Assembly: GCA_965178125.1 (NCBI GenBank)
Contig: OZ237758.1
Location: 620,001 to 684,000, forward strand
Direction of reading: 5' to 3'
DNA from: Bilabrum cf. latius
Lineage: Eukaryota
Length of the DNA stretch: 64,000 nucleotides
How positions within the stretch are numbered: the stretch's first letter is position 1; each line of letters begins with the position of its first letter. Position numbers and translations under genes: made by a program. Of this stretch, positions 9,522 through 38,142 are shown one piece after another. The notes beneath the pieces were generated by a model. The model was not told the DNA's origin and did no database searches. It saw nothing but the letters and a program-made list of their open reading frames with translations.

Positions 9522-10817
9522 TCATTCTGTCCAGGCCGCTGGGATCTCCTGCAGCCACCACGGCTCCTTCGACTCGTCATACTATGTCAGCACCTCGACC
9601 CCGTGGTCCGTCACCAGAAGCGTGTGCTCGAACTGGGCTGCAAGCCCACCGTCTTTGGTCGAGGCGGTCCAGCCGTCCTTCCAGAGCACCAGCTGGGCCG
9701 AATTCTCCACGAGCATCGGCTCGATGGTGAACGTCAGGCCGGGCTTGAGCTCATACCTGTCCGAGTTGCGGTAATGGTTGATCAGTGGTTTGGTGTGGAG
9801 ATCCCTGCCCACGCCGTGTCCCTTGAATTCCTTGACCGTGTCAAAGCCGTACTCGTCCACCACGTTCTGCACGGCCTCACCGATCGTGGCAAGGGACACG
9901 CCTGGCCCTGCGACGCGAATCGCGTCGTGAAGAGCCTTCTTCGTAGCTCGGACCAGTCGCCGGCTTCTCCAGGGGTCCGCGTTGCCTTCCCGCCTCCCGT
10001 ACGGCATCCCGCTCGCCGAGCCTTGCTCGGTGCGAGCAGATGCCCCCAGAATGTCTTCCCCGTCCTGAGGCCGGGTGCGAGCACTGTCTCCGACGATGTA
10101 CGTTCGACAAGTGTCACCGTGAAATCCATTACGGTATGCGACGAGATCGAGGGATACAACATCACCTTCACACAGCGGTGCGTCGTCAGGGATGCCGTGC
10201 AGAGCGACCTCGTTCACTGATATGCAAATGCTCTTCGGGAACGGATTCCTGCCGTACATAAGCGGGCTCGGATACGCGCTATTCGCGATCAAGCTTGCAT
10301 GCACGGCTGCGTCGATGTCTTCCGTACACATTCCAGGTTCCAGCATGGATCCAGCGGCATCTAGCAGCTCGGCAGCAAGGGCACAAGTTTCCCTCATTGC
10401 AGCGATTGACGCAGCGTCGTGAAACATCGGATCTGGGTGACTCGATGGCGTCCCTTGTATCAAGTAGGGGGGCCGCGCAATTTGCGTTGGTACGTCACGA
10501 ACCGGCGAAACTTTCCCTTTGAGGATTGGTGGCTGCAAGCCGAACCATTCTACACGTCTCCTTCGGTGAGCTAGATGCTATGGAAACGCATGCTACTAAC
10601 TACGACTTGGCTGTGCCTCTGATCGCAAGACCTGGTCACCAGCCTTGGCAGAAGTAACTGTTGAATGGAGGAGAGATCGACCGGCTGACGCACCGCAGCC
10701 ACACGAGCCAATTTGCCTGTTAGTGGGCAGGGCGAGTCCGCATGGTACCGCCCGAAGCTTCTGAGGGTAAGAAGCAATGTTACGCACAGCTCGACTGCTT
10801 CTATGAAGTCGCTGCAT
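9522..10817 (-). CDS. Methionine aminopeptidase type I, organellar (METAP1D-like)
   Basis: Motifs FPKSICISVNEVALHGIP, DLVAYRNGFHGDT, GHGVG, FTIEPM and AQFEHT. An Arg/Ser-rich N-terminal presequence is in the same frame through three TAGs (~10578-10598). The C-terminus extends past TAG at 9582 to TGA at 9522. Confidence 0.9.
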
Positions 10818-10942
10818 CAACCTCAGTAATAGATCTAATTGTGCAGCAAGACGTGTCTCGAAGAAAATCTAATTTTCGGCATCGGTTTGTACGGTGCAAT
10901 TGGGATGACGTCACGGTCGGTCGCAACGCACCCCAGATGCAA

Positions 10943-11972: not shown

Positions 11973-12101
11973 GTCGCTGCGCTAACCTGTGCGATACTCC
12001 CGTGCATTTGCAATTCACAGATTGCTCCGAATTGCTCAGATCCCGAAATGAAAATCAGCGTCAGTTTGACGATTCTTGGCAGGGTGATCGAGAAGGAATT
12101 G

Positions 12102-15100
12102 ATGTCAAAGTATGACAAAGCACTCCAATTATCCTTGAGCGCTCCAGCAGCGTCAATTTCGTGAGAGGGTATCGTGAAATTGATCTATGATAAATTGCTA
12201 GCTGTTTGAAAAGGGTATTCTACCGTACATGCATAGAACACTTCCTGCAGGCAAGAGGCAAGGAAGTGCGGTCAACTTGCAATAAAATTCGCAAATGACG
12301 CGCTCAAAGCTGTCAGCAAATCAAAAGTAGCACCCGATGCTGCCGTGCAGCTTGAAATCATTACTAGCTTCGCCGCACTCGTTCGGGTCCGAGGTGTCCT
12401 AAAGACAAGCCCCTTGGCGATGGAGAAGATGATGGCGCAGTTCATGTCATGCTTAGTCGATCGGAATTGCTGGGTGGCGGCCCTATGCGTGTGCGGTAGG
12501 CTGGCACAGTTGCTGCAAGCACGCATAGGCGATGCTGATGGCGAAGTATCAGGTGACTGTGCAGCTTCAGATACGAGCAGTTTCAAAGACATACAATCAT
12601 TCTACTTGCAATGCACCGACACGCCGAGCGCGGCATGCCACGCTTTGCTGCGCTGCTTCCCGCCACCGGGCAGCGGCATCGGGGACTCGGGCACAGCGAC
12701 CATTGCCGCGGCTTGTGCTTGTACCGCAGCGCGATGCATGATTCGCCTGCAGCTGTGTGAGCATGCTGTTGCTTTTTCTTTGGGTACCGGGCGCCTGTGG
12801 ACGGTGCGGCTGCTGCGGATGGGCACTGCTGCATTGACAGGGTCAGCAGCTGGCGCGACGGCTGCCGCTGGTGGGCCCGCGGACCCAACGGCGGCGGGAA
12901 AAGGCGCAAGCAGCGCCACACAGTCGGCTGCTGAGCGGGCTGTTCTGTCTGCGTGGAGGTATCGCGAGCAGCTGTAGCAAGTTCTTTTCGGCGCCGCTCG
13001 AGCCGCCCTTGCCGAGAGTACTAGTGGTGGTGGACAAGCCAGCCGCAGCAGCAGCGGCAGCAGCAGCAGCACAGGAACTGCTGTATAGCCGACCAGACCG
13101 ATGGGAGCCCGAGGCTATCTCGTGCGTGCCCTCGGTCTGTCAGCCGCTGCCATGTGCTGGTCAGTGGCACTACTGCCCAGCCAGGATGCACCCACCAGCC
13201 TGCTGCAATCGTTTGCTTCGAAAATGGCAGGAGCCGGCACAAAGCCAGCGGGCCAAGCAAGCATCGAGCGGGTGTCTCACAGAGGCGTGCTCCTTGCTGC
13301 GATCAGGAGCCACCATGCAGTGCAGTCTGCAGCGGGCCAGCTGCTCGACAAGGCTGAGAGCAGGATCGGAGGCGGAGGCGGGATAACGATTCGGATAGGC
13401 TGCTTGCAGTCAACGGGCGGGCCCTCGGTATCCGCTGCATCGGGATGGACCCCACTTAAGGCGTTGGCCAGCTTGCCTTTTGCGATGGCCAAAGACTCGG
13501 CTCGTAGCGGTATTGTAGTGGGCGAAGGTGCTCCTACATCAGGGGGTGCAGGGGCCGATGCAGCTGCATCAAGCTAGCTGGAGCCGTTACTTGGCGCAAT
13601 TGCGGCATAGATGGAAGCGGGTGCACGTGATGGTGGGCGTAGCAAGCCTCAAGTAGAGACATCGTCGTTTCGAATGCCATGGTGCGACGTTGCTGCAAGC
13701 AGTAGCATGCTAGCTCTGAAGTTTCTCTCGTCAGCGAAGCCAGTGACCAAGGGCACTGGCAGTGAACCTGCCCCTGACTTGTTTGCTTGCACCAGTGCCA
13801 GGACTGGTAGTGGTGCAGGGGCGGGCTATGCGCCTGAGTATGTTGCCTGGCTGGAATCCTCGGCGTCGCATATTGTATCTGGAGAGCGTCCAACGGAGAC
13901 TAGCTACCGCACGGCCGGGGTGCTGCTTGACATGGCTGAGCAGCACTGTGACGCTGTGATCAAGTCGACCAAAGTCGCCACTGGATCGCAAGAGCCATCT
14001 GCATCCAGCACAGCTGGCGCTAGGCCAGACAGTGACCGGGTAGCCATCGTCTCCGACGAGATCGCCGCACGGGGAGCGGCTGCCGGCATCTGCATGCTGC
14101 GCGCGATGATGGCAGCGCAGCGGGCGACCGAGGCGCCCATGCTCGCGAGCACGGGAAGAAGACGCTCTAACGAGGCATCATTTCGACCAAAGACCCACGG
14201 AATGGCCTCAACAGCTTCGACTCCAGCGGCAGGCTCGTCTGTGGCAGAGCTGTCGTTGCTTCGGGGCGCGTAGACGGCCGAGAAGGGCGTGTTGCGGCGG
14301 TGGAGGGCTGCTGGCGGCGGCGCTGCGGATCCCGGTCGAATCAGCGGTTCCGACGACGGCGATGAAGATGAGGACGGTAGTGATCCTGCAGATGCCTTGG
14401 AAAATGTCGCGGCGGGTCGCAAGCGGGGGCCCAAGCTGGCTCGCAGCCTATTCGGGGGCGGGTCAGATGTGTCCATGGACGGCGATGAAGGCAGCCTCAG
14501 CGATGAAGAGCCTTCCTTGAAGACCGCCACCATGCCGGGCTTGAGTAGACAGGAGGCGCTCGATCTGCAGCAAGAACAGCTCTCGCGAGCGTTTGCCGTG
14601 TTTCGACGCGCCGCCAGCCACATCCAGCGGCTGTACTCGTCGGCCAAAAAGGCCTAGGAAGGTTTCGTGCATGACGGCGCGAGCAAGACGAGCGATGCAG
14701 CAAATGTGCAGCTGGCAAGATCGATTGCAGAGGCAGCACGGTGCACTGAACGGGCCAGACGGCTGCTGATCTTCTGGCAGGAGCACCCAGGACTGGCTTC
14801 TGGTGAGTGGAGGCAGGGCATCAGCGCGGGAGCGACAGAACAATCGCGTGGGACGTTTACCGGTGGGATGGCATCTAGCTTGAGAATGAAAGGCAGCTCT
14901 CGGAGCGGTGTGGCTAGCGCAGCTGCTACACCTGCGAGACCGCGCGCGCTTCGGTTTGGGGATGATGGTGGCAATGAAGGTAAGGAGGGTAAGGTCAGGG
15001 CCCCAGCCGCATCTGCTTTGCGCATGGGCATGAACAAGAGCAAGGCTCCCAGCAAGCACAAGTCGGGCGGGGTCCGCTTCGCAGATCCTGGTGGTGCGTC

Positions 15101-18100
15101 TGGATGCAGTGATGATGATCACGGCGATTCTGCCGAGCCAAGAAACGCAAAGTCAGTGCGATTTGGTGCCTCCGTGTCCGAAACACCTGCCCGAGTGGAC
15201 GATCGTGGAGGCAAGACCCCTGCACCTCGAACCGTAGCCGGCCAGAAAGGCAAGGCCAAAGCGAGCGGGAAGCGTCGGGTGGGCTTTGCTAGCGATGTGC
15301 ACGAAACACCTGCTGCTGCTACGCATGCTGGTACAGGCAGGAAGAGCAAACCGGCCATGGATGCAAGTGTCATCGCCACACCAGGCTTGGGAGCCGGGGT
15401 TACGCCTGGTGCGGGCCTGGCGCGACGCAAAGCGAAGACCGGTGGCGAGCACACGTCTAGCGGCGGGTCGTCAGGTGACTGGTGGCTGCTGCTAGAGCAG
15501 GTTTTCGTCCTACTGACACGGTACTCAAGGGTCGCGCTGGAGGCGTGCGGTGTCCAGGGATTCGGAGACGCGGGCGAGGCTGGTTCGTGGCGTCGCGCGG
15601 CCTGCTTTTCCTCGTCTTCTGGCAGTCCCCTGGTGCACCTGTGCTTGGGAAAATCTGACAGCCTTAGTGATAGCGCGGGTCGTGCCACGAGCACGATGCG
15701 CAGGCAGCTCTGTATCCGCTTGCTGGACGCCGGCAGGGCAGCAGCGCAGGCCCGATTACACAGGGTTGCGAACAGGCTGAAGCACAGCAGTGGCGCGGCC
15801 CAGACAGCCAGGAAGCTCAGACTCAGCGCTGCCGTTGCTATGCATGGGAGCAGGGCAGCAAGTACGGGTAACGATGGCGATGCAGATGGCGCGACGTCAG
15901 CGCCTGGATCATCTGTGCGGCGTCTCCTGTTCGGCGGCGGTCGAGATGAGGCTGGTGGCGAGACCGTGGGACCTTGTGGTGCTGCAGAGGACTTGGTGGC
16001 GGAAGACCCCGCCCTGGCTCAGGGAGACGAGGACCTGTTTGGTTTGGCAGAGGACGACACGGACGATGAAGATAGGGGTAGCCTAGGTGGCCATAGAACG
16101 GGCGCCTTGAAGCTGAAGGATGAGGAGGAGGCACTGCACCACGCCGACAAGATTGCTGCGTATGCATGGCCGGCACTGTGTGCCGCGAGATCTACGGGTG
16201 GCAGCACTGGGCTCGACGCCCACAGGCACATCTGCGCGATGCTGCACAACGCGGCTGCTGACTACGCAGAAGCAGGCGCCGCCTCGGCCGCTGCGAGGCT
16301 GCAGTTCGTGGTTGCAACCGCGTGGCATTCGTGCCTGGTCGACTGCTCTGAAAGCGATGCGCGCGCTCGTCGATGCATCGTACCTGCCGCGACGCTGCTA
16401 GGTAATACGGACTCGACTGTGCAGCAGTATAAGTCCGGAGTAGCGGATTGCACGGTGTTGATTGCTGCAAAGTGGATGGGGACGACTCGGGCTGGTATGC
16501 TGAAGGCGGCAAAGGTAGCAAGACGGTACGAATCTGTCGCTCGATGCGCAGCACAGGCCGTTGTACTTCCCGCAGCTAGCGCCATGTGCGCCCTGGCCCT
16601 CTGCTCGCAAGCAACCGCGGGATGCTCTGCTGCACAGCTGGGAGACTAGTCCCCCACGCTCCTCTAGAACACCGTGGCATCTGTTGCCGGTCTCCTTGAT
16701 GCTGCCATCTCTACCTGTTTGCACCCAGATGACGCAGCCGACGGCAAAGAGTCGAACGCTACCACGGGTACGGGCATGTGGAGCGTGTCGACAGTGGTCA
16801 AGCACGTTTTGGCGTGCAAAGAGCACGGTGCGGATGGCGTGCTTGTGGCCGGTCTGTGCATAGCACTCTCCCATCAAGCAGCTTCGTGCAGCCACCGCCT
16901 CGGCGTGCTTCGCCTTCGACCGCCAGCTGCTGCTGCTGATCAAGCTGAAGGAGTCTCCAGCACAGAGCCAGCTCGGATTCAGGCGCATTTGGCAGCGATT
17001 GCTGCCACGCTGTAGGGCGATGGCTTGCAGGCCCGTATCAGAGCAGCTGAGCCGGCATACGTCCGTTCTCGTGCCGCAGCAGCTGCGGCCGAGGCACTGC
17101 TGTCAAGTGCAGCTGCTACCCATTGGCTAGCAGGGCGGGTTCCTTCGTCACTGGATGCCATTGATGCGGCACTTCGGGCCGGTCAGGCCAAGCGTGCCGG
17201 CGTGGAGGCAGGCACAGACAGCGTGGAAGACTCGCTTGAGAAACCTGGAATCACGGATGAGGCCGAACAGGCGTCGTCACAACCGGGTGCTTCCCTGCTT
17301 TCACTTGACGCAAGCAGGTGCTTGGAAGCTAGCATCCAACTAGCCAAGCATGCCATGAACGCAGCAGAGGAAGGGTGGTCCAAATCGCACGAAAGTGACA
17401 GCGACACCGATCCGCTGGATGACGTGACGCGGGCACTTGCGGGGTGCGCCGCCGACTCTGTCATGAGCGCCATCACCAAACTCTAGCGCGACTCGATGGC
17501 ATATTCGGCAGACGCGCCCGACGCGCGGAACGAGGCGGCGGCTGCTCCAGCATCTGACTGGAGTGCATGGGCCTCCCTCTCCTCTGCAGCTGCAGCGGTG
17601 GAAGAGAGGGACAGGGAGGCAGCAGCCTCACAGGTGTTCGGATTGGCACAACGAGCCGCGGCCATGGGCCTCAAGGACGAGCAAGCGGCGCTCAGGCGGG
17701 CGGGCTTGGCGCTGGCGCGAGCTGCGGATTGCTCTGCGAGCGATGATGCCGCTGAGCTCTTGGCTCATGGAGCCCTTCATTCGGTGCTGGCTGGCGATGC
17801 AGCTGCCGCTCTCGCGGCCGCAGAAGACGCGGCCGAGGGCGGGCCGCGGTCACTCTTGGCTGCCTGTCGCTGGGCAGGGGGCTTGCTTTCAAACAGTGAA
17901 CCGAAACTGAAGCCGCCGAAGACAGGTTCATCCGGATTGGTGGCGCCAGACAGACAGGAACTGTCGCACGGGATGCGAGCGCTTCGAGTGCCTGCCAGCT
18001 GCGCGTTCGCAGCTGGCTTATCGGCCGTGCTAGCTCACGCGTGCGAGAGCAGTGCCGCTGAATGGACTGAAGCCGCTGACACATCTGACGACGTCGAAGA

Positions 18101-21100
18101 GATGGGAAATATGTTGCAGGATCACTTGCAGCTCGTACGAACCAGCGCGCGGACGTGCTGGCAAGTTCTGTGCGTGCTTGAGCAGAGGGTAGGGGAGGCC
18201 AAGGCAAGCCTGAAGGGAGCCAGTGGAGCACCCGCGAGGGAGACTGCCGCCAGGCACGTGCACCTGGTCAAAGTGGCGATGGCAGTTTCATCGGAGCACG
18301 CGGCCATCGTGTTTCAGCTCAGTGGGCACCGCTCCCAGGCGGAGCGTTTGCTTGCACATTCGGCTGCATCATGGACAAGCCTGGCAACTCAGCGCGGCGG
18401 AGACGGCGGCATGTAGTCCTCTGGCGTGTCGCTGCTGCCGAGCATACACGCGGCCACTGGCTGGCTCTCAAAGGTTGCAACCGCGGCGCTGCGAGCGCAG
18501 AACCCGGGCGTGCTTGCCTCGAGCGACCCTGTTCCGCCCACGGTTGTCACCCCGCGCGAGGCTGCTCTCCGGAGGATTGCAATCGCCCGGCTGACCGCCG
18601 CACTGGCCGAGCTCGCAGAGCAGCCCAGGCGAGCGACCAAGGCGTTGCGACGAGCAGCGTTCCAGGCGGACTGTTTCGGTGCCGGGATGGCGGGGGGCGA
18701 TACTGGCTTCGGCGTGCTGGCGGATGTCTCGGTGGTGCTGGCGCGTAGAGGGAGGGTCACCGAGCTGGGGGCCTTGCTGGAGCATATGGGCGGGTACTGC
18801 TGGCGGCTAGACGCAGTGCATTCCAAGGAAAGGCATGCCAGGGCGGAGGCTCTGGAGCAGGCCCTGGTGGGTGCACTGTCTGCAGCGACAGGGAGTGAGC
18901 CGGTCCAGCTGGTCCCACGCATGGGCTTGGAGAATGCAGCGCAGCGCGAATCTGTGAGTCGGTTGTCTCAGTACTGCGCCACGGCTGCCTTGCGTGCCGT
19001 CGATGCGGCTGATTTCTCGGACAAAGCGGTGGACGACGTCGCTGCCATCACTACCTGGGCATCGTCTGCAGGTAGTGGGTTTGAGGCTGTGCAGCGGGCC
19101 ATCGCGCTCCCTACGAATGCAGCGGCACGGCTGTGCATTGTGTCGAAGACTTCGGGCAACCCTGCCATGCTGCGGTTGGTATCCCAAATAGCTCAGATCG
19201 GACTATCGACGCGGCTTGCAACGAACGCTGGCAAGTCTAGCATTGCACTGGACGTTGGATCGAAGCGAATCTCATCTACGGTTGACGTGCAGCAAGGTGC
19301 AGAGTGCCTTGACGATGCGGGCATGCGAGCACTCCGGCTTTGGTCTGCTGCGGCGACTGCCTCCAACTTGCCAGCACGACTGGAAGGCGACAGGGCCACA
19401 CTGAGGGCACTTTCGCCTCCCATCGGTGTGTCCCTGCAGGCCGGCGCTTCGATTCTCGACTCGGATCAAACGACAAAGGAGTCGACAGATGTGCCACCGT
19501 TTGCAGCATCTTCCGCTGATGCTTCTGCCTTATTGTAGCTTTCACGCGTTCCAGTCGGGCATCGGATCGCATGCTTGCTGTTCGACGGGCGGTCTGGAGA
19601 AGCGGTCGCGGTCACGGCACATCGCATCAACCACAAGCACGTCTGCTTTGAAGGCCAGCGTCTGCAGGGTGCAGCATCAGGAAAGTATGGTGCTGGGGGA
19701 AGCGGGGAAGGCAGCCAGGATGATAGCCAAAGCTACTGCGAAGGGGGCTGGCCTGCGACAAGAGCTGCGCATGCCGAGCAGCCCATCGCTGGCGATGCCA
19801 ACCGGTTGAGACAGGTCCTCTGGCGGTCTTTCCTGTCGATGCGAGAGGCAGGCACCAGAGAGGCGCAGAAGTGGAGCACCAGGAGGCGAAAGCAGTGGTG
19901 GGAGGAGAGGGAGGCCATTGACGCGGACATGGGAGGGCTACTCGAGGACATCGGGTCCTGGGCCTCTTCGTTGGTGCGGGTGTAGGCACCGTTGCCCCCG
20001 CCCTCGTCGTCGTCATTGCGCGCTGCAACCTCCACCCCGGTTGCGCCCGCGTCCCCTGCATCCGTGCGGGAGAGCCACCTGTCCGAGGAGGAGCAGGACA
20101 TTTTGGCCTAGCTACCCGACCGGCTGCAGTCCATGCGCGTGGCTGAGATAAAGGCAGTGCTGTCCAAGCTGAAGCTGCCTCAGACTGGCAGGAAATCTCA
20201 GCTCATCGAAACGCTTCAGAGCTGGAGAGACGCGGTGCAAGACAGCGACAGCGAGGATGGCAGTGACATCGAGGATGGTGGTGGCAGCGGCAGCGGGAGC
20301 GACAAGGACCGCGGAAGAAGTGACCAGGCAACAGCTGCAGGGGCTGCCCCGGCTGCAGGCATTGTCGATGTTGCCACCAGCACCCCAACGTGCGAGCACC
20401 TGTGGCTGCTGCTTGGACCCACAGCGCAGTGCCTCCCGATTGCAGCCGCGCTGCGAGCTTCAGGTGTGACTTGCTCCGTGTCTCGCGTCGTGTCTGTGGG
20501 ACACATCACTAGGCTGTGCCCCGCCCCAGACGGGTCTAGCTTTCTGTCAGCTGTCAGCCCTGGCAGCCTGTCGTCAGCGGGAGCTGAAGAGAGTGTCTCA
20601 GCTGCTGCCGTGGAGGACCTGTCGTGGGGCGGGGAGCCGGACCCGAGCGATTGGCGTGGATTGAGTCGAGCGAGCGTGATCGAGGCGCTGGTCATGGCTG
20701 CGGAGGCCACTGGCCCTGATGCTGGTACGGTCAGTCTGTCTGCCGGCCGCTTCGTGATCGACCCGGAAGGCGACCTCCTCAAGTCGCGCGAGCGCATGAT
20801 GGAAGTGGTGCATGGGTTGGCAGGTGCCGGGCACGGCGAGCAGCCAGGCAAAGGCAAAGGTGCTACTGCTGCCGCTGAATCTGCTGGTGGCAAAAAGCAA
20901 AAGCACCTTGGCAAGGGCAACGGCGCCGCAGAGCTGGAGAAGGTGGGCCACTGGCGGGGCATGGCAGGCACGATGCCGCCGCCTAGCTGGATGCTGGGAG
21001 CGCTTACTTCGGGTGAGACCGTGCTGTACTGCGGGCATGGTGCCGGGGAGAAGTGCATCGACCGAGACGCTGTGCTGTCGCAGGGCGGGCTCGCGATCGC

Positions 21101-21704
21101 GAGGCAGAGGGCCAGGGAGACGTGGGGCGCGGTCGCAGCCGGAGGGCTGCTGCAGGGCCCTGCGTCGGGGGCTGGTGGTGGCGGAGAGCCCGGTGAGGGT
21201 TAGGGGCTTGGTTCCGATGGTGGGTACGGCGAGGACGTTGATGAACAAGCGGGGAGTTCCATCGGGGCACCTGTGCTGCTCAGCGGGTGCTCAAGCGCGC
21301 GATTGCGGACGGAGGGATCCTACGCCCCGAGCGGGCTGGCGCTCGCCTACACTCTCGGCTGGCATAGGCACGTCTTCGGGAACTTGTGGGAGGTGACGGA
21401 CAAGGAGCTTGACGGGAGCGTCGGGTCATTGTTGCGTGCACTTAGCGAGGGCAAGAGCTGGAAGGAAGCGACGGATTGCGCGGAGCAAGCATGCAGGCTG
21501 AAGCACCTGACCGCAGCCGCGCAAGTGCACTATGGGGCCCCGCTGAGGGCCATCGTGGGGAACACTAAGGGTGTATTGAAGGAGTCCGCTGCAGAGGGGA
21601 AGGCAGCTGCTCCTCCTTCGGGCAGCTCTGGGGGGCCATCGGTTGCAGCCAGACGCGGCCCCCCGGCGGTTCGAGGCAAGAAGCAGAGGGTCTCGAGGCT
21701 TTGA
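12102..21704 (+). CDS. ESPL1: Separase (peptidase C50), ~3170 aa
   Basis: Short exon 12102-12160, then a single 9.45-kb frame (12251-21704) interrupted only by 15 TAGs. C-terminal catalytic motifs are VLYCGHGAG, LLSGCSS, GNLWEVTDKELD and AAAQVHYGAP. Upstream separase motifs include WWEEREAID and FVIDPEGDL. The N-terminal exon is tentative. Confidence 0.88.
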
Positions 21705-21875: not shown

Positions 21876-24800
21876 ATGCAGGCATCTACACTGGACTCGG
21901 TATCAAGTAGTCTGCATCGCCTGCTAGTAGCCAAGTATGAAAGGGCTTAGGAAGCTGTAGAGTCTGCGTGTGGAGACATAGCCCGGCGGTTGCAAGTTTT
22001 GCATCGAGTGAAGCAGCAGTTTTCACGTGTCTCCTTGCCGTAGTAGCTGACAGCCGCTCTATCAGCATTTCTTTCCAGCTCAGCCCAGTGCGCTAGCCAT
22101 TCAGGGGCGATCGATGGGGAGCGTGAAAGGCTCGTCCTCGCTGCCGCAGCAGCAGACATAGCTGACAAGTTGCACCATTAGGCGACCTTGCTCATTAGTC
22201 GACATGGTTCGAATGGAGACACAGATGTGTCTACTATGCGAGTCAGTGGTGCGACCGGGCAAAAACGAACAGCTCGAGCAGACTTCGACCGAAGAGCTAC
22301 CGTGAGCTTCGAATCGATCAATGGTAGCGCCGGTCCTCCAGCCCCACAATTTCCGCATTTCTTGCTTACTGCAACCATACTTCGAGTTACCGTTCGCAGG
22401 CTTAGGCTGCCGCTGCGATGCGCTCCGCATGCCTGTCGCTCGCCGAATCGCTGGGGCGCTGCGCCTCTGCGAGTGCTGTAGCCATCGATGCTGGCATGTA
22501 GCTAGCATCATGCGCCATCGCACTCGCCATATGCGTTTCTTGCCACGCGAAACCCTCCGAATTGCGACGAGCAGTGGATGACATGGTGCTGCAGGCCGGT
22601 GCGACAGGCCGGTCGGCCAGGTCGGCCGTGAGCAGCCTCAAGCGATCGTTCACGACCGCTCCGGCCTTTCGCGAATTTGCCGCAAGGCATGCAGATGCCA
22701 GCGGGGCCGTGGTTCATGGTGGTGCCCATGGGCTGGGAGGCCTAGCCAGTGTGGCGCACCATGGTCTGTTTGCGGGAGCACTCGTCACACGATCCTAGGG
22801 CAGTGGGCCGGAGGGACTGACGAGTGAAGGCATCGACGGGCACAGCCACCCCGCGGGAGCAGCGGCGAGTTATCAACCGCCTCTGGAAATGGACGATTAT
22901 GATGGTAATGGTGACGGTGACGGTAGCCCCGAGGAAGAAGCCCTGGCCGCGCTTGCTCGCACGATCGTCCTTCTACTGCGCGAGGGTGGCCTATTCCTCG
23001 CGGTTGCAACCGCTGGTGCCGCGTCGGCCATGCTTCGGGGGGCGCTGCGCGGCGAGGGCCTGTCGGCTCAGAGCAGAGCTGCGGGCCGGCTAGCGAGCGA
23101 GCTGGTGCCCGGCCTTCCCGGCCCCGTGTTTCAGCTGGCCATGCTCTGTGGACAGCTCGACGCACTCGTCACACACGTGTCGGATTGGGAGCAGGGCGTG
23201 CAGGCGGGTGCCCTGGCTGGGCTGGCCGATGCATCGCACGGTGGTGCATCCGCCTCGTCGTCAAGGAGCCAGGGAGGCCGCCGAGCCAGAAGGCGGTCTC
23301 TGGACGGGAGGGATGCAAGCGCAAGCAATGGGCAGCAGCAGCAGCCCTCCAGCAGCCAGGCGGCCGATGCGACTGCCGGGACCAAATAGAAAGGCTAGCA
23401 GTTTCTCAAGAGTCAGGCGGAAGCGGTCTTTTCTGAGATCTGCGGTGCCCTTGTGTTGCTAGACGCTGGCTCAGGTGAGGCTGCAAGCGGCTCAGGCTCG
23501 GATTTCGAGGACTTTGAGTGCTGGTTGGGGTCGGCCGACTCGAATGTGCGGCGGCTCGCAAAGAGCTTAATAATGGCAGAAGACGCGGGAGTGGGCCTTG
23601 GCAGCCTCGTCTGGGATGGCCTCGGATTCGTGCCTAGTTCCGAGGTGCTCGGGGATGCCAGCGAGCTCGCCGCTGCTCGAATGAGGGACTGGAGGTACGC
23701 GAGGGCGAATCCTGCCGAAGTTGCGAGTGGCATGAGACCTGCTGGCTTGTCTTTTTGCTTCGCGGTACCGGGTGCCAGAGACCTGCTGGATGCTGCTCTG
23801 CGGCCTGGCACAGCTCCCATGCACAAGCTGGAGTCTTTCGGTACGACGACCTCTGCATCGACAGGGGAGGGTGTCCTCTCCGAGGACATCCCTCCTTCCC
23901 ACATAGCCTACCGAGTGGCCAGAAGGGCAGCCGCGCGTGCTCTCCGCGCGTCTTCCGGATCGGTGGCCGCCAGCAGCAACCTCGGCATGGTTGCAAGCGC
24001 TGGACAGGCGCCAGCCGCAGAGGCACTCGTGACCCGAGCGCTGCTGTTGGGCGTGCCACGAGCTGCCTACCGCGTCGCCATTGCGTCGCGCTGTTATGTC
24101 CCCAAAGTGCGAGCTGGGCTTGGGAGCGCGCTGGGTTCCAGCGCGGGGATGCCTGGTGCCTGGACGCTGTTCCGTGCAGGAGACGGCTCTGCAGCACTGG
24201 AGGCATGCAGGGCCGCGGATCGAGCCGGCGCCTTCAGGACGCTTGCAAGCGGTCGTGACGGGGCTTCTGCGCTGGCTGATCTTTCCACTGCCGGTGATGT
24301 TGCCGGCCGTGGTGGCCCTACTAGCGCTGTGACATGCCTGTGGTCATGCATGGTGGAGCACGGCCACTGGCCGGATGCACTCTCTCTGCCGCTTGACGAG
24401 TCAGAGCAGCTTTCGTGCGCGCAGCTCACGGACGAGTGCACCGGGCTGGAACTCTTCGGTCTTGCCAGCCAATCCTAGTGGCAGGGATAGGACAAGGATC
24501 TCGCAGCTCGGGCACGCCAGACTGGAGAGTGCGTCTGGGTGCCGTTCCGCATCGCCATGCATGCCAAGGAGGGCCAGCAGATGCAAGCCGCTGCTCTATG
24601 GCGTGTGGCAGCTGCTGCAGTTCGCCTATTTGCGCAGAGGAATGCATTGTCCGGTCCTGGTGACATGCATGGCTGGTGGGTCCGAAGCACTGCTTACGTT
24701 GCTGCAATCGCGCGCGCGCCTTGGCCGCTGACCACGTAGGAACGGGTAGGGGCAGCCGCTGCCTTGGTCACTGGCTTCTCGGATGAGGCCGCGGAGGAAG

Positions 24801-27800
24801 CTTCGGTCGCCATGGAGACGGGGCTCAAGCATATGTTCAAGCAGATGGGGGAGCCTGCTGCTGGGGACACGGGCCCGGCAGGTGACACGTTTTGGCTTCA
24901 GCAGGTTGGGTTGGCACCAAGCATGCATGAGGGTGACGATCTGGTGCACACTATGAGAGATGGGATTCATCTGCAGCCCGGTCACGCTACTGGGGTCAGT
25001 GGCAGTGCGGGCGCCGCAGGAAAGACCCACGGCCTCGGCCAGAGCATGCTGCGCATGTCTGCTGCAGTAAGCGCGGGCAGGCTAGCGGCCAGCACACGCG
25101 TAGGCTAGAGCGGTCGCGCAGCAGTTGCCGTGCGGGATGGCTCTAATCCATCCCCAGGGTCACCAAGCGGGTCTGTCCGTCTGCTGCGGCGCGGGGAATC
25201 CCCTTCCCGGGCGGTAGCGGGTCACGGTGGAGACCCTTTCAACGGGCATGGAGTGCAAGCGGGCTCCAACGACGGCAAGCTGAGCCTTGCAGACCTCGAT
25301 GCAGGCAGCGGCGGCGGGTCGAAGGGGTAGGATCGGCTGCAGCAGGGAGAAGCGATGCGCATGACTAGCGCAGATCTGAACGTTTTCTCTGGCAGCCAAG
25401 TGGCGCAGCCTGGCATGTCGGACGGTGATGGGACGGGATCTGGGAGCATGCCAAAGAAATTGGGATTTGAGCTGCCTGGCATCGATGGCACCCCAGCCAA
25501 ACAGGAGCAGCTTGATGCTGACGAGCCTCGAAATGTCCCACGGCCCATGCAGCTATCACCAGACGCTGCGAAGCCTATGCAGGCTGATGCATCTGCCGCC
25601 GGTGGCTTTGCACTCGACGGTGGTGCTACGAGCAAGCCAACAACCGCTTCACATTCACAAGGGCTTGGTGACCCGTGGGCTGCGGGTGCTTTTGGCGCGG
25701 CAAGTCAGGCCGGCAGCACCGACCTTGGGGAGCCGTCCTCATCCTCGTCATCGTCGTCGTCGTCGTCATCTTCTTCGTCAGCTGCAGCTGCAACTGCAAC
25801 TCTGGAGGACAGCCCAACCCAGGGCTGGGGTGGCACTGCTGCCACGGCAAAAAATGCCACAGCGGTAAGTGCTGCTGATCGTGGCGCAAGGTCGCCCGCA
25901 CAGCCAGCAGCTGCGCCAATTGAGCTCGAGAGCGCCCTACCGGACCCAATGGCGGGGGCATTCGGGGGTGCTTTTGGTGGCAGCAGCGACAGCGGGGCAC
26001 CCAGCACTGGTCTCGGAGGAAGCAGCAGCCATGAAGCTAATGCTGCGGTGAGCAGCCTCATGGGCATGGTATCCGGATCGCCCGTGGGAGGGTAGCAGCA
26101 GCAGTCAGCCGAGGCCGCCACTGACCCCTGGGGGGCACCAGTCACGGCAGGTGGGACACACCGACCCGCGGCTAGCAAGAGTCCAGAGAGGACGGCGGTG
26201 GAAGCAGCCGCACAGCGCGCTCTGGATGCTGTCGCCGCGGCACAGCACGGTCTTGGAGAAGAGCCGGTCGACTCGAGCTAGTCTGCCTGGGATGCTGGAG
26301 CGCATGACTAGGGCAATGGGTCCAATGGCCGTGACCAGTCCAACCAGGCTACCTCCAAGGATCCATTCGGTACTGCGAGCGGGTTTGGTGGGCTGTCTGC
26401 GCCTGGTGCTGACGTGTTTGGCATGGGAGCCGTGCCCGCTCCTGCTAGTGCTGCTGCATTTGGTTCGGCTACCGATGCCTTTGGGTTAGGCGGCCAGGAA
26501 TAGGAAGATCGCCCTAGCGCCGACTTTGGTGCATCCTCCGTTGCACCTCGCAGTACTCATTTTGAGAAAGACTCGGCTAGCGCTAGCGTAGATCCATTCG
26601 GGCTGGGAGACGCCGAAACTGTGGGCGGCTTCCCCGATGGCGGGTTTGCAAGCAGCGATGCAGGAGGAACTGGTATGGAGGGGACCGCGCAAAATCCTTG
26701 GTCTGCCGCGGCTGGAGCAGCGGCTGGCCCTGCTGATTCTGGAGACGGCGCGAGCAAGGCTTCAACGAGTAAGAAGAGGAGCGCCCGGAAATTCAAGCGC
26801 AGATCGAATGCCCCGAGAGCGGGAACAATGGCCGACCAAGGCGATGATCAGAGCGGAAGCGATGCGACAGGGTTTCCAGCAGTGGTCGAGTCTGGTGGTC
26901 AGCAAACCGTGGAGGCACCTGGCAATGACGGCAATGGCGATGGGGTCTCGGATTTGCCGGCTCCGATCATGAGTGAGGCGTTTGGTACCACGGGCGATAC
27001 TGGCAGCGATTCTTGGGGCGGGGTCGGTGATGATGGAGGGAGCAAGCCAGAGGCGGATGCTGCGTGGGGCGGGTCCGGGGATGATGGGGGGAGCAAGCCC
27101 GAGGCGGATGCTGCGTGGGGCGGGTCCGGGGATGATGGGGGGAGCAAGCCCGAGGCGGATGCTGCGTGGGGCGGGTCCGGGGATGATGGGGGGAGCAAGC
27201 CCGAGGCGGATGCTGCGTGGGGCGGGTCCGGGGATGATGGAGGGAGCAAGCCCGAGGCGGATGCTGCGTGGGGCGGGTCCGGGGATGATGGGGGGAGCAA
27301 GCCCGAGGCGGATGCTGCGTGGGGCGGGTCCGGGGAGGATGGAGGGAGCAAGCCCGAGGCGGATGCTGCGTGGGGCGGGTCCGGGGATGATGGAGGGAGC
27401 AAGCCCGAGGCGGATGCTGCGTGGGGCGGGTCCGGGGATGATGGAGGGAGCAAGCCCGAGGCGGATGCTGCGTGGGGCGGGTCCGGGGATGATGGGGGGA
27501 GCAAGCCCGAGGCGGATGCTGCGTGGGGCGGGTCCGGGGATGATGGGGGGAGCAAGCCCGAGGCGGATGCTGCGTGGGGCGGGTCCGGGGATGATGGGGG
27601 GAGCAAGCCCGAGGCGGATGCTGCGTGGGGCGGGTCCGGGGATGATGGGGGGAGCAAGCCCGAGGCGGATGCTGCGTGGGGCGGGTCCGGGGATGATGGG
27701 GGGAGCAAGCCCGAGGATACAATGGGAGCTGAAAGTGGCGAGCAGCAGGATTCCACTAAAACAAAGGATCCTTGGGGATCAGGTGGGGATGATAATGGTT

Positions 27801-27859
27801 TTGGTGGCCTTGGAGCGCCATCCGAGGATGTTTTCGGCGGCGGCTCGACCGGGTGGTGA
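21876..27859 (+). CDS. Large protein with a probable ELYS (nucleoporin AHCTF1-type) helical domain and a long low-complexity FG/DPW/WG-repeat tail
   Basis: The frame 22400-27859 is open except for TAGs. Exon 1 (21876 to ~22241) is tentative. GALVLLDAG and DALSLPLDESEQ resemble ELYS-domain motifs (W.LD; LL.LPL...EE). Ends at TGA. Confidence 0.55.
27014..27715 (+). repeat. Coding minisatellite, 51-bp unit x ~13.8, encoding WGGSGDDGGSKPEADAA
   Basis: Near-perfect tandem units are visible directly. Differences are mostly synonymous GGG/GGA, with one D>E change. Confidence 0.97.
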
Positions 27860-29273: not shown

Positions 29274-32200
29274 TTACCCAAGCGGCACGTCGCTCCGCAG
29301 GCTGACTCTCTGCAGCAGCGCCTTGCCGTCCTCGCCCTCCATCCGAACCGTCAGCGTGCCCCAGCGCCTGCCGGTGATACGGAGGCCGCACGTGTCAGGG
29401 GCTAGTGCTGCACGCCTCGCTGCTTCCAGCTTAGCCTTCATGGCAGCAGGCATGCCTTGTAGAGACCGCTAGAGTCCCCCACTAGCCCGCACTGCCCCCC
29501 CGCCGGCGACACCCTCGCCGGCGCCGGCAGATTTACGCCCAGGTCCTGGTCCGATCGCTCGTACCTTGATCAAGGCCTTTTCACCTGGCTACAGCTCACC
29601 CGACGCACCCTACAGTTGAAATCCGCCTCCCTCAGCAACGGCGTCTCCGGCAGCGCCGCCACCTGAGCTCTTACCCTTGCCCTTTGCCTTTCCTCCCTTG
29701 CCCTTGTCACCTCGTGGAGATGCTGAATTCGACCCACCATCCGCAACGGCACCCGGGCCTGTCTCGGCTCCGGCCTTGCCGTACGGATCTAAACTCTGAC
29801 AACTAGCAGCAAATGTTACCGGTCCGGCCGCGTCTTTTCTGGCCCACACCTCCACGAGTGCCCAGCCCTCCAAATCGTCATCGTCATCACCACCAATCTC
29901 CTCGTCCCCACCCTTGCTGCTGCTACCTCCGTCCGCATCAGCTGCGTCGGCTGCCGACTCCTTTGCAGGCACGTCGAGGAGCAGGCCCTGTTGTTCCCCA
30001 GCACGAGTCACACCCGCTGTTCCCTCGGCATCCTGCACCTCTGAGCCCTCGGCAGCTTCCATACCCAATGCTGCAGCCAGAGCCAAGGGCTCAGCGAACA
30101 CCTCCTCCTTGTCTCCTGCACCCATTCCACCGTTTGATGCAGTGCCGGCGTTCACACGATCCCCCATTCGCTTCGAAACGGTTGCGGGAAGCACTACAAA
30201 TCCAGGTGCGTCCACGCAGCGCCCTTGCAGCCTCCACAGGCGGGGTGGCTAGTCTTGGTGCTTGACAACAAGACGGAGCGCGGCATCCATGGGCAGCTGC
30301 TGGTCCATCCGAGCAGAGTCGGGCGCGAAAGTGGCTTCAATGGCAAGCTACTACCCCGGCGAGACGGTGCCGCTGTAGGAGGATATAGAAAACGGACCTA
30401 GCGGCTTCGTGGCGTTGCCTGGAGTCTCCCCAGCCGGCACCAAAGTGTACTCGACTGGGAAGGAGCAGCTGCTGCGCAGGATGATGGTGCGCTTTGCCAC
30501 GGCTCCCGGTCGCAACGCTCCAAAATCACTGAGTCCACCGGTGGGCCAGCCATCTACGGCCAAAGAGGGGGAATCGCCTTTGCCCATTATTCTGATGCGA
30601 CGGCTTGTCGTCCCAAACTTGGCGACGGCCGCGCGCCCAGCGTCATCCTCGCGGTGCTCATCGGCTCGCGCCCAGCGGACAAACAACGACGTGGCAAAGG
30701 CCGCTCGTTGCCTGGGCTGGAACACGACGGGAATGACCTGCTTCTGCCCTGGACGAAGCACCCGTGGCGGCTGAGACAGGGAGAATCCCCCCACATCGCC
30801 GCCACCCGCACCACCATCTGCCAAGCCGTCGATCGCAGGGAGGATGGAGTGCGGGCTGCGGTTCCTAAGTGTGATGCTGAGCTCCTACCTCCCGCCCACG
30901 GGACATGCACCGAATACCAGGCTAGTTGGCGTGATCTCCATCTCGGTGGGGGCAAGGACCATGGCCAGCTCAAGGGCATGCGATCTGGATAAGGGAGGCT
31001 GCTGGGACGCCAATTGTATGCCCTGAGCTCCTGATCCTTGCTTCTGCTCGCCCATGTCCTGCACGGACCGCCTGTCATCGAGAGTCTCACAGATGGCCAG
31101 GTGAAACACGCGCTGCCGCTCAAGCGGGAGCGCAGTGGGATCTGCAGGAGCAGCCGACTCTTCGTATAGTAGCCTAGCTTTCTAAGTCAACGATTCCTCG
31201 TCCTGCTGCTCCTCCTATTCGTGCGCGTCTACTCCCTTCGACGGTGACTCTGCTTCGCCACCATCTAGAGTGCTGGCTGCACCAGGCCCGTCCGAAGCAT
31301 ATGTAGCATCTTTGCTCGCGCCTTCAACGCCCTCCTCGCCATCCACAGCCTCACCCAGATCATCCTCACCGGATTCTTGCTTGTGCGATTCTTTCGGTGC
31401 GATCGAGGGCGGCGGTCGACGCCCTTCAATGAGACGAGCCAGTGCCCTAGTCATGCGCACAGACAGGACCAATCTGGCGGTGTCACCCGCCGCCACGCGG
31501 CCGACCGCAGGCCGCACCTCGATCGCCTCTGGTACCTGGACGTCACTACCACCGCCTGATGCCCCTGCCTGCTATTGCGAACTGCCGCCAGAAGATGGAT
31601 TCGAAGCTCCGATTGTTTGAGATAGCCGCATGGATTTCTGCAGCGTCTGCATCATGGCTGCATCCGCACCGTCCGCTCCAAATGCCTCCTCGAGCAGCTG
31701 CCTCACCTGCGGGGCTTGTACCTCGAACTTGGCGGCTTGCTTGGGACCTGCCCGCAGCGAGATCGGGACAGAGGCCTCGTCCCCCACAGCGAGCGGCGGC
31801 AGCGCAATCCTCGTGGCGGACGGAGTCAGCAGTGGCTCGATTCCCGTGCACGCGAGACTCACGCCGAGGCGCTGGCCTGTGCTGGACTGCAGCACCGGGC
31901 TTCTCAAGTTTTCGTCGGGACGACTCGGCGCGAGCCTGACGGAGACTACAGCGGTCTCCCGCGGCAAGAGCACGCCAAGACCGTCTCCATCAAAAGAAAC
32001 GCCTCTTCCCGGCTTCACAAAGCCATACCTCACGGCAATAGTGCTGGGATTGAAGAGAACGAGAGGCCGCTCCACGGCCTGCCCTATCATGCACTCTCCC
32101 ATCTCCACGGCGACTTTGCCGCTGGCACGGGCACGTCTCGTACCAGCGTCATCTCTGCCAGGCATCGCGTCGTATCCGGTTGGGTTGAGCAGGCCACCAA

Positions 32201-35200: not shown

Positions 35201-35645
35201 CATCCCGTTGCGCTTCCCGTTCGATCAAGGCGTGCGCTGCTTGCGCCTGCGCATCTCGCTTGTCTTGCTCCAACAGTGCCGCATCTCTAGTGGTATCTGC
35301 CTCTGCAAACAGCTGCCGTTCCCTCTCCGAACCGCTTTCAGCAGTCTGGAGCTTTTTCTGCGTGCGTACGACTGCCCTTCGGGCACGAACTACCTCAGCG
35401 TCCAGCTCGCCGGTCCCTTTGATCCTAGCTTTCTCTGCCTCAGCCTCTGCAACAGCCTCCAAGCGACCCTACTCCCGCCTCAGCTACGAAATCTAGTCTT
35501 CTAATCTATCTAATCTATCCTGAGCTCCTCTAGCTACGGCATCCGCATCCAAGAAGCGCCGCTTGGCTTCAGCCTGGAGGGTGATGGCCTTATGTGCATC
35601 ACGGAGGGCAAGCTGCTCCGCATTCGTTCGCCTCCGAGTTGACAT
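29274..35645 (-). CDS. CFAP74: Cilia- and flagella-associated protein 74-like (coiled coil plus ASH/Ig-like repeats), ~2120 aa
   Basis: One continuous frame joins seven track ORFs through TAGs. Motifs GTNPYEEFRRR and FTSKPRLLAFIDY...TLTNSSYS...PQGRMSAGTS match CFAP74. Several ASH-like domains follow. Ends at TAA (29274-29276). Confidence 0.78.
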
Positions 35646-35760
35646 AAATATAGAATCTTGAAATAATAGTGAAACTGTATTCAATGTACCTCCTGGATGG
35701 AAGAAATCGAAAGTGATTCAATTCGATCCGTTGTTGAGAAACTGCACGCTATCTACCAAG

Positions 35761-37989: not shown

Positions 37990-38142
37990 TGATGTGGATC
38001 TGTCACACTGCAGATGTGGCGAAACCACGTCGCCAAGTGCAACTAGAAGCGGAACAAGTGGCGCCGCGCATATCAAAAAAATTGACGGTTCTTGAACATC
38101 TCGTGTCGCGCAGTAGGAATATGTGTCTTTTCGATATACTAT

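What the first reader, a model, noticed from the sequence alone, without database searches (positions are those of the whole stretch)
12251..21704. Non-canonical nuclear genetic code: UAG is a sense codon, while UAA and UGA remain stops, in a probable stramenopile
Seen in sequence: the separase gene is one 9.45-kb frame broken only by TAG (12975, 13086, 13575, 13608, 14271, 14655, 16647, 16665, 17013, 17484, 18414, 19536, 19983, 20109, 21201), never by TAA, TGA or a frameshift. The same holds for CFAP74, DCAF11, the M48 peptidase, the fibrinogen-domain protein, MetAP, G-alpha, RAD9, the sulfatases and the mastigoneme genes. Inferred true ends are TGA for most genes and TAA for CFAP74 (29274), DCAF11 (35761) and M48 (53908). 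Established knowledge: in eukaryotes UAA and UAG are usually reassigned together. Uncoupled UAG-only codes are rare, with known cases in the fornicate Iotanema spirale, an uncultured rhizarian and some ciliates. Inference: mastigoneme genes place this genome in the stramenopiles, and the GC-rich, compact style suggests a bicosoecid-like flagellate. I know of no described nuclear UAG-only reassignment in this group, so this may be a new independent origin.
Basis: partly seen in the sequence, partly recalled or inferred. Interest (0 to 1): 0.97.

Follow-up and report, generated by a model that had tools for sequence, protein, structure and literature searches.

The report
UAG read as glutamine in a stramenopile
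This flagellate-type eukaryote, apparently a relative of Cafeteria, reads the stop codon UAG as glutamine while keeping UAA and UGA as stops, a rare split of the two "UAR" codons that our literature searches did not find reported for its group.

Summary
With TAG read through, the window holds frames of 3164, 2373, 2147, 1897 and 1132 codons (separase, a fibrinogen-domain protein, CFAP74, an unnamed protein, an M48 peptidase). The longest standard-code frame is 880 codons. Reading TAA through adds almost nothing. Sixteen gene frames (15,138 codons) hold 95 in-frame TAG and no TAA or TGA. Thirteen end in TGA and three in TAA.

TAG means glutamine. At 14 comparable TAG sites the closest relatives have Q 8, E 3, S 2, G 1. 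One TAG sits in a DCAF11 column that is Q in 108 of 120 homologues. A related metagenome contig has the same gene broken only by TAG, and its three well-aligned TAGs all face Q here.

Contigs from a second study are spliced at GT..AG introns, so they are best read as cDNA. They carry 26 of 40 in-frame TAGs unchanged, which argues against editing, splicing-out and assembly error.

A single-gene tree places the organism with Cafeteria inside stramenopiles. The tRNA and eRF1 could not be examined because no genome is held. Seven literature searches found no stramenopile nuclear code change. I read this as a new lineage with a known code type (UAG=Gln only, as in Iotanema).

The parts
12210..21704 (+). 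Separase gene frame. 3164 codons stop to stop, first in-frame ATG at 12420, stop TGA at 21702-21704, 16 in-frame TAG.
   Evidence: Pfam Peptidase_C50 E 4.4e-24 at residues 2908-3066 and SAP E 1.1e-7.
12975..21203 (+). The last one lies between the GHGAGE (21030) and GCSS (21279) motifs of the C50 domain.
   Evidence: That these motifs hold the catalytic His and Cys is recalled, not tested.
21876..27859 (+). Gene of an unnamed protein with no Pfam match. ATG at 21876, intron 22302-22399 (98 nt, GT..AG), stop TGA. 14 in-frame TAG in exon 2 and more in exon 1. 13.8 copies of a 51-nt coding tandem repeat at 27014-27716.
   Evidence: Spliced contig of run X5 with no differences. The frame is continuous after splicing..
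29274..35717 (-). CFAP74 gene. 2147 codons, 15 in-frame TAG, stop TAA at 29274-29276.
   Evidence: Pfam CFAP74 Ig domains. PDB FAP74 7n6g_3H E 4e-31. Relatives P0128 and L001.
35761..38142 (-). DCAF11 (WD40) gene frame. 5 in-frame TAG, stop TAA.
   Evidence: PDB 9ptu_A E 4.1e-72. Homologues and TAG columns.
38143..39915 (-). Rad9 gene frame. 3 in-frame TAG, stop TGA.
   Evidence: Pfam Rad9 E 7.8e-9..
40061..47182 (+). Large protein with a fibrinogen C-terminal domain. 2373 codons, 14 in-frame TAG, stop TGA.
53908..57306 (-). M48 peptidase gene. 1132 codons, 15 in-frame TAG, stop TAA.
   Evidence: Pfam Peptidase_M48 E 4.4e-17. Relatives P0131-P0133.
9522..10910 (-). Methionine aminopeptidase frame. 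5 in-frame TAG, of which 4 are probably upstream of the start. Stop TGA.
   Evidence: Pfam Peptidase_M24 E 1.7e-43..
1761..2624 (+). Exon of a G-protein alpha subunit. 3 in-frame TAG, 2 of them inside the G-alpha domain. Stop TGA.
   Evidence: Pfam G-alpha E 3.2e-72.
49781..51415 (-). EGF-domain protein (mastigoneme-like architecture). 2 in-frame TAG. A second such gene lies at 52415-53698 (+) with 1 TAG.
   Evidence: Pfam EGF_2 / teneurin-type EGF at both ends. Architecture compared with passages of PMC12223298.
47818..49607 (+). Sulfatase gene copy. Its inverted duplicate lies at 57462-59280. Both copies carry the same in-frame TAG.
   Evidence: Inverted repeats I1 and I2, 97% complementary. 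Pfam Sulfatase / SGSH_C.

Best explanation
The window is nuclear DNA of a heterotrophic-flagellate-type stramenopile related to bicosoecids. Its cytoplasmic ribosomes read UAG as glutamine, and UAA and UGA remain the only terminators. This is the code type of NCBI table 15, also seen in Iotanema spirale.

Shown here:
- In-frame TAG is as common in genes as out of frame.
- TAG is kept in spliced transcripts.
- TAG lines up with Gln in relatives.
- Relatives down to about 66% protein identity share the trait.

Inferred, not shown: decoding is by a tRNA-Gln with anticodon CUA. That tRNA would be one anticodon change away from tRNA-Gln(CUG) and cannot pair with UAA. An eRF1 that no longer recognises UAG efficiently is also inferred. 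Because CAG and TAG then differ by one synonymous transition, TAG sites turn over quickly between relatives.
For: (1) Frames. With TAG as sense the five longest frames are 3164, 2373, 2147, 1897 and 1132 codons, against 880 for the longest standard-code frame. TAA as sense changes nothing.

(2) Codon counts. Sixteen frames with 15,138 codons hold 95 TAG, 0 TAA and 0 TGA. Their off-frames hold 102/112 TAG, 30/41 TAA and 213/325 TGA.

(3) Gene identity. The genes are real and conserved: Pfam and PDB matches. The last separase TAG lies between the two motifs of the C50 domain.

(4) Glutamine.
- DCAF11 TAG column 284 is Q in 108 of 120 aligned homologues, with K 9 and H 3.
- The nearest relatives at 14 well-aligned TAG sites give Q 8, E 3, S 2, G 1. 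Q beats E by 2.66 log10 units, and the binomial P is 7e-9.
- Control: relatives show Q at 60% of TAG sites, 79% of CAG, 47% of CAA, and 0-4% of GAG, GAA, TCG, AAG, TGG, TAC, TTG and GGC.

(5) Relatives. Metagenome contig L001 holds the CFAP74 3' part as about 720 codons broken by 7 TAG only. Its 3 well-aligned TAGs all face Q in the window. The two proteins end at the same residue (..DVPLG), with TGA there and TAA here. Protein records of closer relatives stop exactly at window TAGs (P0124, P0131, P0132) or at a window Q (P0133).

(6) Transcripts. Contigs of runs X5 and X8 skip 22302-22399, 28025-28116 and 28434-28530 with GT..AG ends, while X1 runs through. No run shows any other letter. Listed X5 pieces cover 26 of 40 in-frame TAGs in 12000-31999.

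(7) Gene ends. Stretches after the last TAG score as coding (+0.28 per codon over 2313 codons). Stretches after TGA or TAA score negative in 15 of 15 genes.
Against: - No tRNA gene lies in the window and no genome is held, so the tRNA-Gln(CUA) and the eRF1 changes are unseen.
- There is no peptide evidence.
- 6 of the 14 compared TAG sites do not face Q (E 3, S 2, G 1). That is more mismatch than at CAG codons (21%).
- Only 16 gene ends were examined, and frames were defined by TAA/TGA. Occasional termination at UAG therefore cannot be excluded.
- The runs with spliced contigs are not on record as RNA, and the tool labels X5 'probably DNA'. Their cDNA nature is inferred from the GT..AG joints.
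- Taxonomy rests on one gene and a quick tree.
Confidence: 0.88

Rival explanations
1. UAG is ambiguous. It is read as Gln inside genes but still terminates some genes, depending on context, as stop codons do in Condylostoma or UAA in Blastocrithidia.
For: Only 16 gene ends were examined. Four tails after the last TAG are short (19-64 codons), so their coding scores are noisy. For MetAP, homology alone would allow an end at the TAG.
Against: All 15 tails after the last TAG score as coding, and the sequence after TGA/TAA does not. In L001 and the window the CFAP74 end coincides at TGA/TAA, after a TAG or Q ten codons upstream. In-frame TAG is as frequent as off-frame TAG.
Confidence: 0.06
2. 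UAG is a sense codon for another amino acid, glutamate being the next best.
For: E faces 3 of the 14 compared TAG sites, 4 counting the more distant L001 at a site where the closer relative has S.
Against: Q is favoured by 2.66 log10 units (14 sites), or 4.1 with the 3 L001 sites. The conserved DCAF11 column is Q in 108 of 120. Relatives show Q at 1-4% of true Glu codons but at 60% of TAG sites.
Confidence: 0.03
3. Both UAA and UAG are reassigned (the common UAR=Gln code), and TAA is merely rare in this GC-rich genome.
For: TAA is rare in every frame: 186 TAA against 447 TAG trinucleotides in the window.
Against: There are 0 in-frame TAA in 15,138 codons, against about 26 expected from 95 TAG times the CAA:CAG ratio 119:431. 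Reading TAA through lengthens the long frames by 0 to 217 codons only. Three genes end at TAA. The CFAP74 TAA sits exactly where the relative has TGA.
Confidence: 0.02
4. This is an artefact or decay: pseudogenes, systematic C-to-T assembly errors, or TAGs removed by editing or splicing.
For: None found.
Against: Runs of three studies give identical letters with no variant. Spliced contigs keep the TAGs. Only TAG ever interrupts the frames, never TAA, TGA or a frameshift. Relatives have their own TAGs at other Gln positions.
Confidence: 0.01

Closest known systems
Iotanema spirale (Fornicata) nuclear code: UAG=Gln, UAA and UGA stops (Panek et al. 2017, PMC5304391; abstract and section 9 read)
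   Same: The same reassignment: UAG to glutamine with UAA kept as terminator. The inferred mechanism is also the same: a tRNA-Gln(CUA) that cannot read UAA, and a weakened eRF1-UAG contact.
   Different: It belongs to an unrelated supergroup (Metamonada), so the origin must be independent. In Iotanema UAA is the primary stop, whereas here TGA ends 13 of 16 genes. The Iotanema eRF1 change (T32G in the GTS motif) could not be looked for here.
Protocruzia tuzeti and two phyllopharyngean ciliate lineages: UAG=Gln only (PMC11687900; passages read)
   Same: A UAG-only reassignment to Gln that arose repeatedly.
   Different: These are ciliates, a group already known for many code changes. This window is not ciliate-like: it has long multi-gene chromosomal DNA at about 60% GC, and DCAF11 groups with Cafeteria.
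Rhizarian exLh (UAG=Leu), Scotinosphaera (UAG=Ser), ciliate PL0344 (UAA=Lys, UAG=Glu)
   Same: UAG and UAA are decoupled in a nuclear genome.
   Different: The amino acid differs. Leu and Ser are among the worst fits here, with no L and 2 S among 14 sites.
Cafeteria roenbergensis / burkhardae, the nearest named relatives
   Same: Closest named sequences for DCAF11 (48% and 43% identity), in one clade in the tree.
   Different: In passages of PMC6972860, only the Cafeteria mitochondrial genome is described as annotated with a non-standard code (UGA=Trp). No nuclear deviation is mentioned.

Membership tests
UAG=Gln-only nuclear code (NCBI table 15 type) | In-frame UAG inside conserved protein-coding genes | tested here: met
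   95 in-frame TAG in 16 homology-supported frames
UAG=Gln-only nuclear code (NCBI table 15 type) | UAG positions correspond to glutamine in homologues | tested here: met
   Q at 8 of 14 sites in the nearest relatives. One deep column is Q in 108 of 120. Control codons behave as expected.
UAG=Gln-only nuclear code (NCBI table 15 type) | UAA is not sense and is used as a terminator | tested here: met
   0 in-frame TAA against about 26 expected. 3 of 16 genes end at TAA. The CFAP74 TAA matches the relative's TGA. This rests on one 64-kb window only.
UAG=Gln-only nuclear code (NCBI table 15 type) | UGA is not sense and is used as a terminator | tested here: met
   0 in-frame TGA against 213 and 325 in the off-frames. 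13 of 16 genes end at TGA.
UAG=Gln-only nuclear code (NCBI table 15 type) | UAG kept in mature mRNA | tested here: met
   Contigs of X5/X8 spliced at GT..AG carry the TAGs with no differences. The cDNA nature of these contigs is inferred.
UAG=Gln-only nuclear code (NCBI table 15 type) | tRNA-Gln with CUA anticodon present, and no UUA tRNA | not testable with these tools
   No tRNA in the window and no genome held
UAG=Gln-only nuclear code (NCBI table 15 type) | eRF1 N-domain altered (GTS, NIKS, YxCxxxF) | not testable with these tools
   eRF1 is not in the window, and no genome is held
Stramenopiles, near Bicosoecida | Phylogenetic placement with stramenopile sequences | tested here: met
   DCAF11 quick ML tree. 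The window and its relative fall in a clade of 7 with two Cafeteria (SH-aLRT 96). This clade is sister to Achlya plus one unnamed row (SH-aLRT 90). One gene only, and the careful search did not finish.
Stramenopiles, near Bicosoecida | Tripartite-hair (mastigoneme) proteins | tested here: inconclusive
   Two genes encode proteins with EGF domains at both ends. This matches the described architecture (PMC12223298 passages). No sequence comparison with a known mastigoneme protein was made.
Stramenopiles, near Bicosoecida | 18S rRNA or multi-gene phylogenomics | not testable with these tools
   No rRNA in the window
Separase (peptidase C50) | C50 domain at the C-terminus of a very large protein | tested here: met
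   Pfam PF03568 E 4.4e-24 at residues 2908-3066 of 3164. The GHGAGE and GCSS motifs are present. Their catalytic role is recalled.

The most novel reading that the evidence does not exclude
This is the first nuclear genetic-code change in stramenopiles. It is an independent origin of the UAG-only (Gln) code in a bicosoecid-related lineage. At least two further lineages share it: one at about 66% identity with TAG seen in its DNA, and one or more at 88-95% identity whose protein records break at the same places. CAG/TAG turnover is fast. The organism has genome and spliced-transcript data, so the responsible tRNA-Gln(CUA) and eRF1 change could be read directly.
Probability: 0.6. Interest if true: 0.85.

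Novelty: new member of a known kind. Interest (0 to 1): 0.8.

Why it matters
UAA and UAG nearly always change meaning together, and only a handful of lineages separate them. Each independent case helps show how a ribosome, one release factor and one tRNA can tell the two codons apart.

A stramenopile case adds a new major group to that list. It comes with long genomic contigs and apparently transcript data. It also comes with relatives at several distances, so the order of events (tRNA first or eRF1 first, and the rate at which TAG spreads into genes) could be traced.

There is a practical consequence too. Standard-code gene callers cut this organism's genes into pieces. The database records found for it and for its relatives were fragments ending at TAG. 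Its proteins are therefore likely to be systematically mis-annotated in public collections.

Tried and rejected
- Whole-genome route: no genome is held for this window. Genome-wide codon inference, a tRNA scan and eRF1 inspection were therefore impossible.
- ARAGORN and Rfam found nothing in the window.
- The look-up of sequencing runs listed no holder on record as RNA. This says nothing about expression.
- Parts of the separase gene have no listed cover in X5/X8. That is no finding.
- The ends of X5 contigs near the separase TGA (21766) and the CFAP74 TAA (29243) come from one study only. I treat them as no more than a weak hint.
- The separase 'shorter' search returned only 4 hits, 3 of them the window's own fragments, because the candidate cap filled with low-complexity words.
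- PDB alignments of DCAF11 and CFAP74 gave too few sequences to read TAG columns. Human DCAF11 shows Q, N and V at three sites.
- Of the 150 listed hits of the M48 search I looked at only 4 (P0131, P0132, P0133, P0136). The rest match the M48 domain alone at low identity.
- One window TAG (alignment column 870, facing D in L001) was dropped from the likelihood as poorly aligned. About 80 of the 95 in-frame TAGs had no relative to compare.
The mastigoneme question was left at the level of architecture.
- The careful tree search did not finish in the time allowed, so the quick tree is reported.
- Paralogues in the window (4023-5156 against 5166-6740) are too diverged to read a TAG.
- Supplementary files of papers were not opened. 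The eRF1 alignment of Panek et al. is in a supplement and would only matter once this organism's eRF1 is in hand.
Full report
**Observation**

The frame that matters opens at 12210, after a TGA at 12207-12209, and runs to the TGA at 21702-21704. It spans 3164 codons with 16 TAG and no TAA or TGA. All 15 TAG coordinates in the finding are correct. A 16th TAG, at 12234, lies upstream of the first in-frame ATG at 12420.

The protein carries Pfam Peptidase_C50 (E 4.4e-24, residues 2908-3066) and a SAP domain. The last TAG (21201) lies between the GHGAGE and GCSS motifs of the C50 domain. Their catalytic role is recalled, not tested. A stop at that TAG would cut off the second motif.

**Is it more than chance, and is it general?**

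The longest stop-to-stop frames in the window depend on the code:

| Code | Longest frames (codons) |
|---|---|
| Standard | 880, 663, 512 |
| TAG as sense | 3164, 2373, 2147, 1897, 1132 |
| TAA as sense | 880 (unchanged) |
| TGA as sense | 939 |

In 16 frames supported by homology (15,138 codons) there are 95 in-frame TAG, 0 TAA and 0 TGA. The two off-frames hold 102 and 112 TAG, 30 and 41 TAA, and 213 and 325 TGA. TAG is therefore not counter-selected in frame, while TAA and TGA are fully excluded.

The genes were identified by Pfam or PDB matches. They are separase, CFAP74, DCAF11 (PDB 9ptu_A, E 4e-72), Rad9, a fibrinogen-domain protein, an M48 peptidase, MetAP, a G-alpha exon, esterase D, an RRM protein, an FHA protein, sulfatases and two EGF-domain proteins. 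Thirteen of the 16 frames end at TGA and three at TAA (CFAP74, DCAF11, M48).

**Which amino acid?**

*DCAF11.* A search gave 467 homologues at E<=1e-20, and the best 120 were aligned.
- One window TAG falls in a column that is Q in 108 of 120 (K 9, H 3).
- The closest relative, P0002 (77% identity), has Q at 2 of the 3 alignable TAG sites and G at the third.

*CFAP74.* A Logan record, P0128 (88% identity, 607 aa), spans seven window TAGs and reads Q, S, E, Q, Q, S, Q.

*M48.* P0132 (95% identity) has Q at two window TAGs.

*Pooled.* Taking the nearest relative at 14 well-aligned sites gives Q 8, E 3, S 2, G 1.
- With BLOSUM62 conditional probabilities, Q is best by 2.66 log10 units over E.
- The chance of at least 8 Q in 14 at the local Gln frequency is 7e-9.

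*Control on the same alignments.* Relatives show Q at:
- 60% of TAG sites (9 of 15 site-relative pairs)
- 79% of CAG (42 of 53)
- 47% of CAA (7 of 15)
- 0-4% of GAG, GAA, TCG, AAG, TGG, TAC, TTG and GGC

TAG behaves as a Gln codon. The non-Q residues (E, S, G) are mostly one base away from TAG (GAG, TCG). This fits TAG arising by mutation at weakly constrained sites.

**Relatives share the code**

The one metagenome scan fetched L001 (2928 nt, 60% GC), which holds the 3' part of a CFAP74 about 66% identical to the window's.
- Its frame is open for about 720 codons except for 7 TAG.
- It has no TAA or TGA until a final TGA.
- Its three well-aligned TAGs all face Q in the window.
- Both proteins end at the same residue (..DVPLG), followed by TGA in L001 and TAA in the window. 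This is direct support for TAA as a terminator here.

Protein records of closer relatives behave the same way. P0124, P0131 and P0132 end exactly one residue before a window TAG, and P0133 ends where the window has Q. For these four only the protein is seen, not the stop codon.

None of the seven window TAGs in the P0128 stretch is shared by that 88% relative. TAG sites therefore turn over fast, as expected if CAG and TAG are synonymous.

**Transcripts and artefacts**

Eight runs from three studies hold the stretch. Four were laid on 12000-31999.
- No run shows a single differing letter.
- A 19,983-nt contig of X1 runs unspliced through 12000-27079.
- Contigs of X5 and X8 (one study) skip 22302-22399 (X5 only), 28025-28116 and 28434-28530. 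The skipped pieces have GT..AG ends, and the flanks are 86-255 letters long.

I take these contigs to be cDNA, although the runs are not on record as RNA and the tool labels X5 'probably DNA'.

After removal of the 98-nt intron, the gene at 21876-27859 reads from an ATG in one frame broken only by TAG. One spliced X5 contig of 3798 nt carries ten of those TAGs. The listed X5 pieces cover 26 of the 40 in-frame TAGs in the laid stretch, X8 covers 8, and X6 (a third study) covers 13. Editing, splicing-out, assembly error and pseudogenes are thus poor explanations.

**Does UAG ever terminate?**

A leave-one-out codon model was applied to 15 genes.
- Stretches between the last TAG and the terminal TGA/TAA score as coding: +0.28 per codon over 2313 codons, positive in all 15.
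- The 60 codons after the terminal stop score negative in all 15.

No gene here needs TAG as its stop. The sample is small, so a dual role is not excluded.

**UAA**

If TAA were also Gln, about 26 in-frame TAA would be expected: 95 TAG times the CAA:CAG ratio of 119:431. None is seen. Reading TAA through extends the long frames by 0-217 codons only.

**Taxonomy**

The best named DCAF11 hits are Cafeteria sp. MMETSP1104 (48% identity; taxid 33652, genus Cafeteria) and C. roenbergensis (43%).

I built a quick ML tree of 35 rows: the window plus 34 of the 120 listed hits, chosen as named rows and the top unnamed ones.
- The window and its 77% relative fall in a clade of seven with both Cafeteria (SH-aLRT 96).
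- This clade is sister to the oomycete Achlya plus one unnamed row (SH-aLRT 90).

This is one gene, and the careful search did not finish.

The two EGF-domain genes fit the described mastigoneme architecture of signal peptide plus 3-4 EGF-like domains (PMC12223298, passages). They were not compared by sequence.

**Mechanism (inferred)**

Panek et al. argue (PMC5304391, section 9) that a code reading UAG but not UAA needs a tRNA with anticodon CUA. Such a tRNA is one change away from tRNA-Gln(CUG).

**Novelty**

Seven full-text searches found no nuclear code change reported for any stramenopile. The library lacks most subscription journals.

Known nuclear UAG-only cases are listed in PMC11687900 (passages):
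- Iotanema spirale, Protocruzia tuzeti and two phyllopharyngean lineages (Gln)
- the rhizarian exLh and one phyllopharyngean lineage (Leu)
- Scotinosphaera (Ser)
- PL0344 (UAG=Glu, UAA=Lys)

For Cafeteria, only the mitochondrial genome is described as annotated with a non-standard code, UGA=Trp (PMC6972860, passages).

The code type itself is therefore known. The lineage appears to be new, and the origin must be independent.

Noticed in passing
window 22302-22399, 28025-28116, 28434-28530: Three short spliceosomal introns (98, 92 and 97 nt, GT..AG), shown by spliced contigs of runs X5/X8. The genome is intron-poor but not intron-free. The FHA-domain gene (about 28000-29162) has two of them.
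   Followed up: partly
window 27014-27716: 13.8 copies of a 51-nt tandem repeat (98% matches) encoding a 17-residue unit (GGSKPEADAAWGGSGDD) at the C-terminal end of the unnamed 21876-27859 protein. Short high-depth contigs at its edges suggest the array is collapsed or variable in the assemblies.
   Followed up: partly
window 25733-25785: A short acidic-coding low-complexity stretch. Depth jumps to 77-620 in all four runs, and dozens of contigs join or end here. It is evidently a motif shared by very many genes in these samples.
   Followed up: no
window 47818-49607 and 57462-59280: Inverted duplication (arms of 934 and 684 nt, 97% complementary) of a sulfatase gene. It brackets the two EGF (mastigoneme-like) genes and the M48 gene. 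Both copies keep the same in-frame TAG, and each is split into two frames, which points to an intron or a frameshift between them.
   Followed up: partly
window 4023-5156 and 5166-6740 (- strand): Two adjacent paralogous frames of 377 and 524 codons with no Pfam match. The first 34 codons at the upstream end of each frame, as translated, are identical and probably lie upstream of the start. Each has a Cys/His-rich stretch followed by a D..D..K-like segment. This may be a repeated or mobile element.
   Followed up: no
window 756-1316 and 1761-2624 (+ strand): The G-alpha gene is split. A frame near 1150 holds an MGCGASNS.. N-terminus, which runs on into non-homologous sequence after ..RVLLLG. 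The rest of the domain lies in 1761-2624. At least one more intron is implied.
   Followed up: no
CFAP74, window 29274-35717, against P0128 and L001: TAG positions are hardly conserved between relatives. None of 7 window TAGs is shared by the 88% relative, and none of the 3 well-aligned L001 TAGs is shared by the window. This suggests rapid CAG/TAG exchange since the reassignment.
   Followed up: partly
protein records P0122, P0123, P0125, P0124, P0128-P0133: Public protein collections hold this organism's genes, and its relatives' genes, only as fragments cut at TAG. They were evidently called with the standard code.
   Followed up: partly
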